Shown: positions 1 to 42,932 of the stretch, piece after piece | Position numbering within the stretch: position 1 is the stretch's first letter | How the letters are laid out: each line of letters begins with the position of its first letter | Origin: Octopus vulgaris | Lineage: Eukaryota | Assembly (NCBI GenBank): GCA_951406725.2 | Contig: OX597818.1 | Location: forward strand, 18,228,001 to 18,292,000 | DNA length: 64,000 bases | Reading direction: 5' to 3' | Translations under genes and position numbers: made by a program | Notes under the pieces: generated by a model | What the model saw: the letters and a program-made list of their open reading frames with translations, nothing else | The model's database searches: none | What the model was told of the DNA's origin: nothing

Positions 1-471
1 GAGAACGACGAAGCAAGATTCGTAATTTCAATCGACTGTTTTTCTTTGAAGCGGCTTTATGTCTGGTTGAAGATAAAAGAAAGAGAAAGCATTTGTTACT
101 AGTTGCGAAATCTCAAAATAAACTCGAACCTACCAAACGTCGACACAAGTAAAAGTAAGATACATTCGGTGTGAAAGTTCCTGTTCGTAAAGCAATACAA
201 CTATGTGTAGCTAAATACTACTTTACCAACTACTAAGTGACGACGGCGCGGCTGTCAGAGACACTTTTATGGGGTTAGATACAATTTACTGACTAATAAT
301 GTTTAGTTACAGCAATTTACCTCATGATTTAAAAAAAAATTGTGTCTGTATACACTTTATCGTTCATCTGTCTCTGAAAAAAAAATTGACTGAACGAAAG
401 TGAAAAGAGTTTTACGCCTGTGAAAAGGGGGGAAAAAAAGGAAAAAAAAATATTGTTGTTTCCAATCCAAC

Positions 472-798
472 TGGCACTCCGTCGGTTACGACGACGCAGG
501 TTCCAAGTTGGTCCGGTCAAAGGAACAGCCTGCTCGTGTAATTAACGTACAAGTAGCTGAGTATTCCATAGACACGCGTACCCTTAACGTAGTCCTCAGG
601 GAGATTCAGCATGACGCACAATGTGACGTGGCTGTTTCTTTGAATTACAGGTACAACTACTTTTTTTGCAAGCTGAGCAAACGGGAGCAATGTGAAATAA
701 AGTGTCTTGCTCAAGGACACAACGTGCTACCAAAGATCATACTCATCACCTTACGATCATGAACCGAATACCTTAACCACTAAACCAGCTGCCTTCAC
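472..798 (-). mobile_element. tRNA-derived CORE-like SINE (family D)
   Basis: Minus strand starts GTGAAGGC..GGTTTAGTGGTTAAGG (A box) and contains the CORE-like GTGTCCTTGAGCAAGACACTT. Homologous to 11068-11391. A 12-bp TSD, ttccaat(c/t)caac, lies at 460-471 and 1249-1260. Confidence 0.85.
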
Positions 799-1213
799 GG
801 ATCTTTTCGGTTTGAACGGCAGTTTTTAAAAATAATTTCCATGTAACTAAACACTTAAACTTCGTATACTGGTAGAATGTGTTTATTAAACATCTTTTTC
901 TCTTGGCTTTATTGAAAAAATTCTATCGTTTGCAAGATATTTGTTGTTGTTTTTCTTCAATTTCTGCAATTTCAACCAATCAATGGCGTCTATTGAGCTG
1001 AAATCATTCTGTGCCGTATGAATATCTCCCTCGTTTAAGAAACAGATTGGGTTTATTTACATTTCTGAAGAAAAAAAAGATACCCTTCCCTCCACCCCTA
1101 ACCCTAACCCTAAAACAGATTGAAATGCAATAGATCGATACTAGGGTCATAATTATGGGTGACAATTTCATATGACACTGCTAGTAAAACTGCCATTCAG
1201 ACCGAAAAGATCC
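799..1213. mobile_element. Non-autonomous TIR element (GGATC termini) with internal telomere-like repeat
   Basis: 28-bp TIRs GGATCTTTTCGGTTTGAACGGCAGTTTT at 799-826 and 1186-1213 (2 mismatches). (CCCTAA)3 at 1096-1113. Flanked by a 35-bp direct duplication, 764-798 and 1214-1248. Confidence 0.9.
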
Positions 1214-1509
1214 CCGAATACCTTAACCACTAAACCACCTGCCTTCACTTCCAATTCAACAGACCGATGCTCAGTGACCATCTCGATATTTAATTGAAGC
1301 ATAGTGTTAGTTTCAATAACACTAACACATGTCAAATATGTTCTTTTTCAAATCGTAAGGGTGTAATTAAAGGAGAGGATAATGTTTGAATTTAGCGGCC
1401 CACTTTCACTTTGTGAAACCTGCATTTTGATAATCGGCCAACAACCGGGAATTGGGGTTAAATAACAACTTTGTTGTTACTGCTGGCATTGTTGTTATCG
1501 TTGTTGTTA

Positions 1510-1850: not shown

Positions 1851-2578
1851 GGATCTTTTCCTTTTGAACGGCAGTTTTCAACACAATTTCTAGTTAACTA
1901 AACAATTTTAAACTTCGTATACTGGTAGAATGTGTCAAAATAAAACATTTTTTTCTCTTGGCTTTCTTGAGAAAATTGTAATTTGTAAGTTTAACGTAGT
2001 TTAATTTTTCGAATTTTAACCAATCCTATGCCCTCTTTTGAGCTAAAATCATTTGCTGCGTCTAAAACTCAGACAACATCCTGTCACTAACCCTAACCCT
2101 CACCCTAAACCTAACCCCAACCCTAAATTTTAGCCTTTCGTTTTTTTTTCTTAATTGTTAAATTAATTTAATTGCTACGCGTGTGTCTAAAATTATTCGT
2201 TTTGTTTTTGTTTGAGTTTTTGCTTTCGTTTTAACCTTTCGTTGTTTTTCTTAATTGTTATCCTTAAATTAATTTAACAATTAAGAAGAAAAAAACGAAA
2301 GGCTAAAATTTAGGGTTAGGGTTAGGGTGAGGGTTAGGGTTAGTGACAGGATGTTGTCTGTTTTAGACGCAGCAAATGATTTTAGCTGAAAAGAGGGCAT
2401 AGGATTGGTTAAAATTCGAAAGATTAAACTACGCTAAACTTAAAAATTACAATTTTCTCAAGAAAGCCAAGAGAAAAACATGTTTTATTTTGACACATTC
2501 TACCAGTATACGAAGTTTAAAAGTGTTTAAGTTAACCAGAAATTGCGTTGAAAACTGCCGTTCAAAAGGAAAAGATCC
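1851..2578. mobile_element. Foldback (palindromic) copy of the GGATC-TIR family
   Basis: About 320-bp inverted arms beginning GGATCTTTTCCTTTTGAACGGCAGTTTT. (CCCTAA)n variants at 2087-2126 and (TTAGGG)n at 2310-2343. The arms are homologous to the left ~220 bp of 799-1213. Flanks are aggatgt and aagatgt. Confidence 0.9.
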
Positions 2579-3106
2579 AAGATGTGATTTGTTAGAACCC
2601 TGGTTGCCTCTTCTAGTAGATCCAGTGATTATGCCCGTTAGATAGTTATATCTGTATTGTTCTGGAGCGGTGGACAAGGCCGACACTGCCGGAGTGCACC
2701 AGCTGTTTCGCCGCTGTTATCATTTGGAACAAGCAATCACAAACAGTTGTGGATTAACCCTAGGTCTGTCCTGATCGAGCAGACCTATTGTCAAGTCACT
2801 GCAGCCACAACCATCCCGTCTTTTCTTTCGTGCATAAAACTTACATTATGTAATGTGTCCCTCCCTTTTCTGAATTCGGAAGGGTGTTATACAAGGGAGA
2901 TTCCGCTTCTATTTCTAGCTGATCGAGCGACTACATACAAGCATCCTCGTTAAACTTTGTTAGTGAAACTAGGTACAAGGAAACATTGCAGAAGCTGATT
3001 GGACGGTATTTTTTGGTGAGAGAATGGGTAAACCTTAAACTTTCGCCAGACAACATTTGGCAGAGCTACTGAAGTTATTGATACTGCTACTATTTTTAAG
3101 TATACG

Positions 3107-3593
<487 letters not shown>

Positions 3594-5484
3594 GTGTGTG
3601 TGTTTGTTTCTTTATGTTTGTCTAGACTAACTGGCAGGTACAGTGTTTTAATACCGTTGTGTTTGGCTGCTTGGATTTTCATTAGACATTATGTGGCAAC
3701 GTCTGGGAAGGCTGGAGTTTTCTGCAGAACTAAACTGCCTGTCCAAGCGGTCTTTTATTTTAAGTAATTTTGTTTTATGTTGTAGGTGGTATGTGGGTAT
3801 TGTCTGCGCGAAGCTTTTGATGATGCGAAGCGCACTGTTTTGTGTTCTTTGTTGTTTATTGTGGAGAGAATAGTTTCTTGGTTTGTCTGGCATAATCCAT
3901 ATTGGAACTACTATATTGTTTTTATACCACTGTTGATTGATTGTTAACGGCTTGTGGGGTTCTGAATATTGTATATTGGTGATTATTTTTGTTCTTTTTT
4001 TTTCAAACTGTCTCTTCTCTGTGTATTGCAAATGTTCTAAGAAATGTAGTACATAATTCCAAAAGTATTTGTCTTCTGCGTGTCTGGTCTTGTTTATGTT
4101 TTTGTGAGCAATGGCTGGTTGTATCTGACGATCTTTGGTGTTTCTTAAGTCCAGGAGAGATGAAGAGAATTTAGACATTAGTGCACATATGTTGGGAGAA
4201 GATAGAGCAATGTTTCTCAAAAGGTAGCCTGTGAGAATTGGAACAGTAGCAGAAAAATTACCATTTATAATAAAATTTAGATGGTTTCAAAGTTGAATAA
4301 TTTGTCCAACACCATGTCGAAGACAAGAATTACATGGATACAAACTCCGTCTTCTTCCTAATGAAGAGCAATAGGGCGAAATCTCCCAGGTATTTTTGTG
4401 GGGCGGGGCTAACAATTGTCAGTTTGAGAACCACAGGTATTGAATCGATTAAATTAACAACAACAAACTGGTATATTATGTATAAAAGTCAAAATTGATG
4501 TTGGCGGGATTTGATTCAGACAGTGACGAAGCTAATAGGGGAGCAAGGTGGGTGACCGCTCCCCACCGAGTACATTTTTCAAAATTGGTGACTTTTCACA
4601 ATTTCTTTTTAGCTCTTTAGTTCACTTGTGCGATAAAAGTCGAATGTCTTTTTTTGTTGTTAATAGCATGGTATTGGAAGAACTTTCTGGAGTCATTAAT
4701 TTATTTAACCAATCTCCCGTAATTTTTAACTCTTTGCTCAATCTCCTGTGATGTGTTGGTGGACCTGCAGAACCAAAACAAACCCTGATGTCATAACCTC
4801 TCGACACCAGACGATCCCCTGGAGTTTCATCTTTCTCACGTCACGCCTATATCAGTAATTGTAAGTTTTATACATAATGGCATTGTTACTGAAACATGAA
4901 ATTAATAATTGTAGAATACAATTATATAAATTATAACTAATGAAATATTTCGTGTACTATAACAGAAATAAGTTAAAATTGTTTGGCATATGACACTGTG
5001 CCGTTTCAATGTTCTCGTTCCCCCTAAATTTAGAACCTGGCTACGCCTCTGAATTCGGAGTCGCAAAATGTTCGACGTTCTATTGCCAATCTCCCATCCT
5101 AAAATCCTTATAATGATAGGGCTGGAGAGAGCTTGTTTAAACGGGTAGGGGTCATATCTATCATTAGTCTTTTTTGAAAGCTGTCCATTGACCCCATGCC
5201 GATATTTTTTACAGAATATGCTTTTCACCGACTCCTATAGTTTATTATAGAGTGATTAAAGAGAATGGTTTCCTGGTACGAATGGCATAATTCACAATGG
5301 ATTAACTTCTGCCAAAAAAGCAAAGTCATTGGGTCTAGGTTTAGAAAAGGTTAAGTGGTTAAGTTGTTATTTTCAAGAAAAAAAAAAGCTCACGTCCATA
5401 AAATCACGTGCCAGAGTTCGACTGTAAAACAAGTTACGTTTTTGCTTTATGCTTCCGCATTTTTCCCAAGCGTAAACATGCGCG

Positions 5485-11067: not shown

Positions 11068-11391
11068 AAAAGACTCCGCCGGTTACGACGACGAGGGTCC
11101 CAGCTGATACGATCAACGGAACAGCTTGCTCGTGAAATTAACGTGCAAATGGCTGAGCATTCCACAGACACGTGTACCCTTAACGTAGTTCTCGGGGATA
11201 ATCAGCGTGACACAGAGAGTGACAAGGCTGACCCTTTGAAATACAAGTACAACTCATTTTTGCCAGCTGAGTGGACTGGAGCAACGTGAAATGAAGTGTC
11301 TTGCTCAAGGACACAACGCGTCGCCGGGAATCGAACTCACAACCTTACGATCATGAGCCGAATGCCCTAACCACTAAGCCACGCGCCCTCA
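11068..11391 (-). mobile_element. CORE-like SINE family D, full length
   Basis: A and B boxes (TGGCTTAGTGG; GAGTTCGATTCCC). TSD ctcaaacaatacatt at 11053-11067 and 11392-11406. Confidence 0.92.
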
Positions 11392-11419
11392 CTCAAACAA
11401 TACATTCATATACATATAA

Positions 11420-18254: not shown

Positions 18255-18492
18255 GTAAAAGTTACCTTCTCGGGTCATGCCGCCTCACAAGGGCCAGCCT
18301 CCTGGTTTCCATGGCGCACGAATTCCCTGCCGGGACGGGACGCGCAGGATTACTCATTTTTGCCAGCTGAGTGGACTGGAGCAATGTGAAATGAAATGTT
18401 TTGCTCAAGAACGCAACACGTCGCTCGGTCCAGGAATTGAGACCACAATCTTACGATGATGCGTCGAACACACTAACCACTAAGCCATGCGA
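18255..18492 (-). mobile_element. CORE-like SINE (D-related)
   Basis: Head GCATGGCTTAGTGGTTAG and GTTCTTGAGCAAAACATTTCATTTCAC. A similar copy lies at 22625-22872. Confidence 0.8.
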
Positions 18493-31351: not shown

Positions 31352-31646
31352 TATGTTTCATAGCGAGCGGAACCTCGGAATTGGAAAATATTCAAGCGAG
31401 CTGTATACCGTAGGTTACTCGTCAGGCCAAGGGTATCTTGATTAAATGAAAGTTTACATTGTCACAAGAAAGTACACGTTAACACATGGAGGATTCGATC
31501 TTCTATGTGTTAATGTGTACCTCTTTGTGACAATATAAACTTTCATTTAATGAAGATACCCTTAGCTTGGCGAGTAGCCTACGATATACACCTCTCTTGG
31601 ATAATTTCCAATTCCGAGGTCCGCTCGCTATGAAACATACTCAACT

Positions 31647-31727
<81 letters not shown>

Positions 31728-32158
31728 TAAGGTCCTGGTAAAGTATAAAGGCATGATATTTCCAGAGAAAGACACAGTCCGAGTTCTGGCCAATGAATTC
31801 CGTCGGATTCCAGACTAATACCGAAATTATTCAGGTGTAAAACCGTTGTGTGGCTGCGACGAAGAGTAAACCATAATTGAAATAAGAAGAAGATAAAGAA
31901 ATCCTTTAACATATTTTAAATGATTCGTAATAACTGTTTTTGTACCAACTCAATTGCAATGTCAGTTTACGCAAAAATACGAAGTGAAAATTTACGTAAT
32001 GTTTGCAATTTTTGATATTAGAGTGGCACTTCATCAGACTTGCATCAAAGGTACGCTCTTACGTTGTTGAACGTGCTTCATCGGCTTACCACCAGGGACA
32101 TACCCAACACTTAAATATTTCCAATTCCGAGGTCCGCTCGCTATGAAACATACTCAAC

Positions 32159-42576: not shown

Positions 42577-42932
42577 CGCACATTAGATAATCCTAGTGTC
42601 TTATTACGAATAATTAATTAATTATTTAATTAATTTAAACTGGGTTATTTCTGTTTGTTGTTAACATATTAAATTCTTATAAATTAGCAGTTTTCGTACG
42701 TGTTGTGCCCAGTTGAATTTATCAAATAAGATTAATGTTTCGTTAGTATTAATCATTTGTATGTGAAGGCATGTAGTTTAATGGTTTCTGATATTCAGCC
42801 CATAATCATAAGAGTGTCAGTTTAATTCCTGGTACATGAGGGCTGTTGTGTCCTTGAGCAAGGAACTCTATTTCATGTTTTTCCAGTTTACTTAGTACCG
42901 GCTGCGTGTTAGTACAGCGCTTTTTTTCTCAC

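What the first reader, a model, noticed from the sequence alone, without database searches (positions are those of the whole stretch)
460..1260. Telomere-repeat TIR element with a 35-bp duplication ending exactly at a SINE 5' end
Seen: a 415-bp element with 28-bp GGATC TIRs and (CCCTAA)3 is flanked by a 35-bp direct repeat (764-798 and 1214-1248, 1 mismatch). That repeat is the first 35 nt of the host SINE, and the SINE's own 12-bp TSD (460-471 and 1249-1260) encloses everything. Established: DDE superfamilies make short, fixed-length TSDs of roughly 2-11 bp. The sister copy at 1851 has only about 7 bp. Inference: this is either an unclassified transposon making variable, long staggered cuts, or the element was captured by template switching during SINE reverse transcription.
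Basis: partly seen in the sequence, partly recalled or inferred. Interest (0 to 1): 0.75.

Follow-up and report, generated by a model that had tools for sequence, protein, structure and literature searches.

The report
Merlin mini-transposon that duplicates its flanks
This is one of thousands of copies of a small cut-and-paste transposon, likely of the Merlin family, that landed in an older SINE; most copies duplicate 8 bases of the target, but about 1 in 20 sits between much longer duplications (13-212 bases), likely because its two ends were inserted separately at two nearby sites.

Summary
The element is a non-autonomous MITE with 13,112 exact TIR matches in the genome. Of 164 other copies with clean ends, 124 have an 8-bp TSD, and 9 (5.5%) have 13-212-bp flanking duplications, so the 35-mer is neither the family's rule nor a one-off. 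Homologous ends lie upstream of Merlin (PF12762) transposase ORFs in 11 of 19 loci. A related species has the SINE at this site without the element or the duplication (three studies), which refutes capture during SINE reverse transcription. Both ends of the long duplications score as complete 8-bp target sites (p<=2e-4 against local shifts), favouring two separate integrations (hybrid-element-insertion type, known for P and Ac/Ds) over one long staggered cut. The junction at the SINE's first base is unique genome-wide and about 0.24 such cases are expected by chance. A second GG-ended MITE family shows the same tail (4 of 67); a mariner control does not (0 of 47, not significant).

The parts
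460..471 (.). left copy of the SINE's 12-bp target-site duplication
   Evidence: 11 of 12 match to 1249-1260
472..798 (-). older SINE, full length, 5' end at 798; present before the element arrived
   Evidence: 81-83% to other copies, 6407 first-look candidates; 5' end fixed by 25 of 29 copies; present without the element in organism C
764..798 (.). left copy of the 35-bp flanking duplication (SINE nt 1-35); its first 8 (764-771) and last 8 (791-798) bases are the two inferred integration targets
   Evidence: target-site scoring over 11 long duplications
799..1213 (+). 415-bp non-autonomous MITE, likely Merlin superfamily; no coding capacity
   Evidence: 3607 first-look candidates, best copies 92-95% identical; 13,112 exact TIR 24-mers; ends shared with Merlin ORF loci
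799..826 (+). left TIR (5'-GGATC)
1096..1113 (+). (CCCTAA)3 internal repeat; copy number varies among family members; no role shown
1186..1213 (-). right TIR
   Evidence: 26 of 28 match to left TIR
1214..1248 (.). right copy of the 35-bp duplication, ending at the SINE 5' base
   Evidence: 34 of 35 match; right junction bridged by a contig of run X1
1249..1260 (.). right copy of the SINE's TSD
1851..2578 (.). sister element of the same TIR family, foldback form (two left arms), ordinary 7-8-bp TSD

Best explanation
The element is a non-autonomous MITE, likely mobilised by a Merlin (IS1595-type DDE) transposase, that inserted into a pre-existing SINE, and its 35-bp flanking repeat likely arose from two separate integrations rather than one cut. 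Step 1 (shown by the empty site in a relative): the SINE was there first. Step 2 (inferred from the family norm): the MITE inserted with an 8-bp TSD at 764-771 or 791-798. Step 3 (inferred): after replication the transposase paired the left end of the copy on one chromatid with the right end of the copy on the sister (or homologue) and inserted this hybrid 27 bp away, so that one product carries the element between two copies of everything from the new 8-bp target to the old one (35 bp) and the reciprocal product carries a deletion. This happened to roughly 5% of copies. That one target is the first 8 nt of the SINE is likely chance.
For: Family norm: 124 of 164 clean-ended copies have 8-bp TSDs, 4 have 7, 2 have 9 (one manual reassignment). 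Long class: 13, about 15, 23, 30, about 34, 49, 124, 125, 212 bp in 9 of those 164, plus 71 and about 65 bp in 2 of 14 copies with damaged ends; bimodal, not a continuum from 8. The two copies of each long duplication measured are 87-100% identical, like the 4.4% per-site mismatch of ordinary TSDs, so they are as old as the insertions. A target-site matrix from 123 ordinary sites scores both the outer and the inner halves of both boundaries of 11 long duplications like true sites and above locally shifted positions (inner p<=2e-4, outer p<=0.008 over six settings). About 12 of 164 clean-ended copies have no TSD, as the reciprocal deletion would give. Merlin link: MITE-homologous left end upstream of and pointing at the transposase ORF in 11 of 19 loci, right end downstream in L147 and L182; PF12762 at 36.6 bits, cut-off 27. 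Empty site: one contig in each of three runs of organism C (three studies) joins 763 to 1214. Hybrid element insertion and related events are described for P and Ac/Ds (PMC3744419, PMC2775673; passages).
Against: No complete coding element with both GGATC TIRs and a TSD was found; the coding relatives are only 70-84% identical to the MITE's left 204 bp and are broken, so the actual mobiliser is not identified. The query's own inner half-sites score poorly (-0.58 and -0.81); the signal comes from the set of 11. No intermediate allele (same site, element with 8-bp TSD) was seen, and the deletion class is not verified against empty sites; its score (0.45; true 1.22, background -1.21) also fits later loss of one TSD. 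A single transpososome might read both half-sites even in a long stagger. One other copy (L020, 1501) abuts position 6 of a SINE-like 5' region and has no TSD, a second near-coincidence.
Confidence: 0.62

Rival explanations
1. One insertion event with uncoupled strand transfers: the two ends attack the two strands of one duplex 13-212 bp apart and replication or repair fills the long gap (the first reader's 'long staggered cut', as a minority mode of a Merlin transposase).
For: Both element ends are precise; duplications are short (median about 35 bp) and none above 212 bp was found within 1-3 kb of flank; the rate is high and recurs in a second GG-ended family (4 of 67). Bacterial IS1549/IS1634-type elements with long variable direct repeats are recalled, not read (one search listed no primary paper).
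Against: Inner half-sites match the 8-bp target preference at both boundaries, which a single cut at each boundary does not require; a TSD-less class of similar size exists; lengths jump from 7-9 to 13 and more.
Confidence: 0.2
2. Local hop followed by ectopic recombination: two copies inserted a few tens of bases apart on different chromatids or homologues and a crossover inside the element produced duplication-element-duplication.
For: Predicts the same two full target sites; local clusters of 3-4 copies within 7 kb exist (L281, L283, L315).
Against: Needs a clean loss of the first copy from one chromatid; the left copy of the repeat continues the SINE without a footprint. Independent insertions within 200 bp are far too rare at about one end per 200 kb.
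Confidence: 0.1
3. The transposase targets SINE or Pol III 5' ends, so the junction at the SINE's first base is functional.
For: Exact abutment here; near abutment at L020.
Against: Genome-wide pattern search over 31 offsets found 2 matches, this locus and one 13 bases off; only 3 of 178 copies have a junction in this SINE family, at three different positions; about 0.24 exact abutments are expected from 13,112 ends and 20 SINE heads per 557 kb.
Confidence: 0.04
4. The element was captured by template switching during reverse transcription of the SINE.
For: The SINE's TSD encloses everything and the repeat is the SINE's 5' end.
Against: The same SINE at the same site in organism C lacks element and duplication; the other 11 long duplications show no junction in this SINE family.
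Confidence: 0.02
5. Assembly artefact (collapsed alleles).
For: Only the right junction was seen bridged in a listed contig, from a run that may be the assembly's own source.
Against: Duplicate copies differ by 0-13%; contigs of organisms B and D carry the right copy with 28 bases of element end in front (below the tool's 31-base bridging rule).
Confidence: 0.02

Closest known systems
Merlin superfamily DNA transposons (IS1016/IS1595-related; PMC8101967, passages read)
   Same: TIR begins GG, 28 bp, imperfect; 8-bp (sometimes 9-bp) TSD; associated ORF with DDE_Tnp_IS1595; internal tandem repeats; the paper reports Merlin as abundant in an octopus (191 sequences).
   Different: The passages read mention only 8- or 9-bp TSDs; here about 5% of copies have 13-212-bp flanking duplications. 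This copy is a non-coding MITE and no intact autonomous partner was found.
Hybrid element insertion of P elements; sister-chromatid and reversed-ends transposition of Ac/Ds (PMC3744419 passages and section 10; PMC2775673 passages; Gray 1996 and Preston 1996 seen only as titles in reference lists, content recalled)
   Same: Ends from two copies act together; flanking direct duplications and reciprocal deletions; precise element ends; new junction at an ordinary target site.
   Different: Different superfamily; duplications here are 13-212 bp against 8 kb-5.3 Mb for the new Ac events; a single element lies between the repeats (maize reversed-ends products carry two elements); fixed in about 5% of genomic copies, whereas the maize survey of 26 hAT families found three cases of its (different) structure.
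Bacterial IS elements with long variable direct repeats (IS1549, IS1634 type; recalled, no paper read)
   Same: Direct repeats of variable, long length at precise ends.
   Different: There long repeats are recalled as the rule; here 8 bp is the rule and the transposase is IS1595-type.
Dada transposons targeting small-RNA genes (recalled)
   Same: Insertion at a tRNA-derived sequence.
   Different: No site targeting here.

Membership tests
Merlin superfamily | TIR begins 5'-GG, 24-462 bp | tested here: met
   28-bp TIR starting GGATC; criterion from PMC8101967
Merlin superfamily | 8- or 9-bp TSD | tested here: met
   124 with 8 bp and 2 with 9 bp of 164 clean-ended copies; this copy itself is an exception (35 bp)
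Merlin superfamily | Ends shared with elements coding a DDE_Tnp_IS1595 transposase | tested here: met
   11 of 19 transposase loci carry the homologous left end upstream (70-81% identity); right end downstream in 2; PF12762 36.6 bits for L147, 26.7 bits (just under cut-off 27) for the stop-free part of L179
Merlin superfamily | A complete autonomous copy: both TIRs, TSD, intact ORF | tested here: inconclusive
   Not found in 8 extended loci; candidates with longer open frames were not examined
Merlin superfamily | This transposase binds these TIRs and moves the MITE | not testable with these tools
   needs a binding or transposition assay
Hybrid element insertion (alternative transposition) | Precise element ends with a flanking direct duplication | tested here: met
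   9 of 164 clean-ended copies plus the query
Hybrid element insertion (alternative transposition) | Both boundaries are ordinary transposase targets | tested here: met
   inner and outer half-sites above local background in 11 duplications; weak for the query alone
Hybrid element insertion (alternative transposition) | Reciprocal flanking deletions | tested here: inconclusive
   about 12 TSD-less copies; no empty site available to size a deletion
Hybrid element insertion (alternative transposition) | Ends come from two chromatids | not testable with these tools
   needs marked ends in a cross or cell assay
Site-specific small-RNA-gene targeting (Dada-like) | Recurrent insertion at one position of the target | tested here: not met
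hAT, Zisupton, P (other 8-bp TSD groups) | Ends linked to their transposase families | not tested
   no search was run for these families once the Merlin link was found

The most novel reading that the evidence does not exclude
Merlin transposases routinely uncouple their two ends, so that about 1 in 20 insertions leaves a 13-212-bp flanking duplication (and as many a deletion); this is a superfamily-level property not shared by mariner in the same genome, and it makes Merlin MITEs a steady source of hundreds of small duplications and deletions and the first window on how IS1595/Merlin enzymes capture targets.
Probability: 0.3. Interest if true: 0.62.

Novelty: new variant of a known kind. Interest (0 to 1): 0.4.

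Why it matters
The element is an ordinary kind of MITE and the SINE coincidence is not meaningful. What has value is the family-level pattern: at about 5% of at least 6,500 copies, some 300 loci in this one genome should record an aberrant integration with both junctions readable. My literature searches found no report of such events for Merlin, and this data set could discriminate two-chromatid reinsertion from a long single stagger without any bench work. It also warns that TSD-based classifiers will misfile a few per cent of copies.

Tried and rejected
SINE 5'-end targeting: rejected. Template switching: rejected. A 3.36-kb TIR pair (L107) as autonomous partner: no transposase ORF, it is a nest of other elements. 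The first 15 PF12762 loci and 19 further ones mostly belong to other GG-ended families; only L147 led to the link. L128 as a long autonomous copy: no ORF link seen. Search for the right end and TSD of 7 coding copies within about 9 kb: nothing convincing. Sizing deletions at TSD-less copies from host repeats in the fetched DNA: no usable case. Cross-matching TSDs between neighbouring copies for inversions: one 7-of-8 match in L315, not decisive. Rows changed by hand in the count: L246 moved from long to 8 bp (host tandem repeat), L300 from none to long (15/14 bp), L277 dropped from none (mispaired end; true pair has an 8-bp TSD); L003, L006, L281, L306 left out of the TSD-less scoring as ambiguous. 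Mariner control: 52 copies, 4 in microsatellites and 1 low-complexity false call set aside, 0 of 47 long; Fisher p=0.21 against 9 of 164 and 0.13 against 13 of 231, so family specificity is not shown. Summed contig depth over the element is far lower in organism C than in A, B, D, a hint only that the family expanded later. Look-ups of earlier findings by sequence and words gave nothing. Supplements of the papers were not read; Repbase-type family descriptions there could already list this MITE.

Full report
Observation. The sequence is as described. A 415-bp element (799-1213) has 28-bp TIRs that match at 26 of 28 and holds (CCCTAA)3 at 1096-1113. It lies between two copies of 35 bp (764-798, 1214-1248; 34 of 35). 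These are the first 35 nt of a minus-strand SINE (472-798), whose 5' base is confirmed by 25 of 29 other copies. The SINE's 12-bp TSD encloses the whole. G000 is a 2.8-Gb animal genome; earlier notes of this scan call it an octopus, which I did not test.

The family. A DNA search gave 3607 first-look candidates with best copies 92-95% identical; an exact 24-base TIR pattern has 13,112 matches and 0 for the reversed control. I paired TIRs in the loci held at that point and classified flanks for 178 elements other than the query, 164 with clean ends. They came from the closest copies (29 clean-ended), two position-ordered lists (54 and 68), older long forms (9) and bystanders (4). Automatic classes for the 164: 8 bp 123, doubtful 8 bp 5, 7 bp 4, doubtful 7 bp 1, 9 bp 2, microsatellite 2, long 9, none 18. 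By hand, L246 became 8 bp, L300 became long and L277 was a mispairing. Final: 124 with 8 bp and 9 long (5.5%, 95% interval 2.5-10%); 6 of 122 in the position-ordered lists alone. Long lengths are 13, about 15, 23, 30, about 34, 49, 124, 125 and 212 bp, plus 71 and about 65 bp among the 14 copies with damaged ends. No long duplication arose in 600 shuffled flank pairs. The duplicate copies measured are 87-100% identical, in line with 4.4% mismatch per site in ordinary TSDs and 90.6% mean pairwise identity of elements, so they date from the time of activity.

The enzyme. GG-termini and 8-bp TSDs suggested Merlin (criteria in PMC8101967, passages). PF12762 has at least 150 matches in the genome. 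One locus, L147, has a GGATC end downstream of a Merlin ORF. Searching with that ORF, 11 of 19 independent loci carry a sequence 70-81% identical to the MITE's left end upstream of the ORF and pointing at it, mostly 300-550 bp before the start; L147 and L182 carry the end downstream. The ORF scores 36.6 bits on PF12762 (cut-off 27) and shows three acidic blocks (VEIDET, IFSD, QQIES) by eye. All these coding copies are broken and no complete element with TSD was recovered, so membership rests on shared ends, TIR start and TSD size; the exact mobiliser is not known. I did not search for hAT, P or Zisupton partners.

Order of events. Contigs from three runs of organism C (three studies) each run from 690-763 directly into 1214-1500, skipping the element and one repeat copy; another contig of X8 joins the left flank to the SINE's 3' part. 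The SINE therefore predates the element, and capture during SINE reverse transcription is refuted unless the insert was lost precisely. The right junction is bridged in run X1, which may be the assembly's source; organisms B and D show the right repeat preceded by 28 bases of element end, short of the 31-base rule. The left junction was not among the rows shown.

Is the SINE end targeted? A genome-wide pattern allowing 31 offsets between element end and the SINE head found 2 matches: this locus and one 13 bases off. Three of 178 copies have a junction in this SINE family, at different positions. With 20 SINE heads in 556,789 fetched bases, half in the needed orientation, 13,112 ends give about 0.24 expected exact abutments. 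Against this reading, L020 abuts position 6 of a SINE-like 5' region and has no TSD. I read the coincidence as chance.

Mechanism. Ordinary sites show a weak palindromic preference (A just outside and at position 2, T at 7 and just outside). If a long duplication comes from two integrations, its first and last 8 bases should each be a full target; if from one long stagger, only the outer halves need match. For 11 long duplications (query included; L092 left out because its end is damaged) both outer and inner halves beat positions shifted within the same loci (inner p<=2e-4, outer p<=0.008, three flank widths, with and without the two shortest) and do not differ from true half-sites. The query alone has weak inner halves. 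Twelve TSD-less copies score between background and true sites, compatible with reciprocal deletions but also with later loss of one flank. The simplest known process giving duplication-element-duplication with precise ends is hybrid element insertion: ends from sister chromatids or homologues act together and insert nearby (PMC3744419, passages and section 10; PMC2775673, passages; the primary P-element papers were seen only as titles). Shown: SINE first, 8-bp norm, long tail, target-like boundaries. Inferred: two rounds, use of two chromatids, identity of the enzyme. A minority long-stagger mode (0.2) and local hop plus ectopic recombination (0.1) remain.

Controls. A second MITE family with GGTAC ends and 8-9-bp TSDs, Merlin by inference only (GG ends, TSD size, weak similarity to an end beside a Merlin ORF in L069), has 4 long duplications (about 26-46 bp) in 67 clean-ended copies. 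A mariner-derived family of similar age (89.9% pairwise; YSPNIAPSDFHLF motif in its remnant frame) has 0 in 47 usable of 52 copies. The difference is not significant (p=0.13-0.21).

Novelty. Merlin is known and reported abundant in an octopus; a recent octopus repeat annotation lists Merlin and MITE families (PMC13282606, first third of the text), so this family may already be catalogued. Alternative transposition is known for P and hAT. Searches pairing Merlin with alternative transposition, transposition mechanism, or long variable TSDs returned no paper that by title or abstract describes this pattern; the library lacks most subscription papers. Verdict: a real feature, a new variant of a known kind, interest 0.4; the striking local coincidence is not meaningful, the family-level tail of long duplications is.

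Noticed in passing
window 1851-2578: The sister element is a foldback made of two left arms with a further internal inverted repeat; foldback derivatives of the MITE are common (L086, L090, L113).
   Followed up: partly
L069 2931-3061; L298 3487-3655: An inverted duplicate of the element's end plus about 30 bp of flank sits just outside the element, forming a 68-75-bp palindrome between two outward-facing TIRs; could be a sister-chromatid transposition or hairpin product, but large palindromes are frequent in this genome generally (L128, L132, L145).
   Followed up: partly
L020 1380-1500: A TSD-less copy abuts position 6 of a SINE-like 5' region; a second TSD-less copy lies 880 bp away in inverted orientation.
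   Followed up: partly
L315 30-3598: Four copies within 3.6 kb, two without TSD, with a 97-bp inverted duplicate (661-757 / 2840-2936, 99%) and one shared 7-of-8 flank: a possible complex alternative-transposition product.
   Followed up: partly
L063-L066, L075, L129-L131: Other Merlin families with open frames of about 305-320 aa; GGCAC-ended copies of 1.6-2.1 kb with perfect 8-bp TSDs look complete and possibly recent.
   Followed up: no
L107 2330-5956: Nested stack: GGTAC MITE around a GGATC MITE around a 3-kb foldback element with a 9-bp TSD.
   Followed up: partly
L208 about 2500-5400: A 114-bp tandem repeat array downstream of the Merlin ORF, shared with L209.
   Followed up: no
window 11073-11392, 18357-18487, 42763-42895, 23152, 31354-32150: Further SINE copies, a mariner-like end and another TIR element; no Merlin coding sequence in the window.
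   Followed up: no
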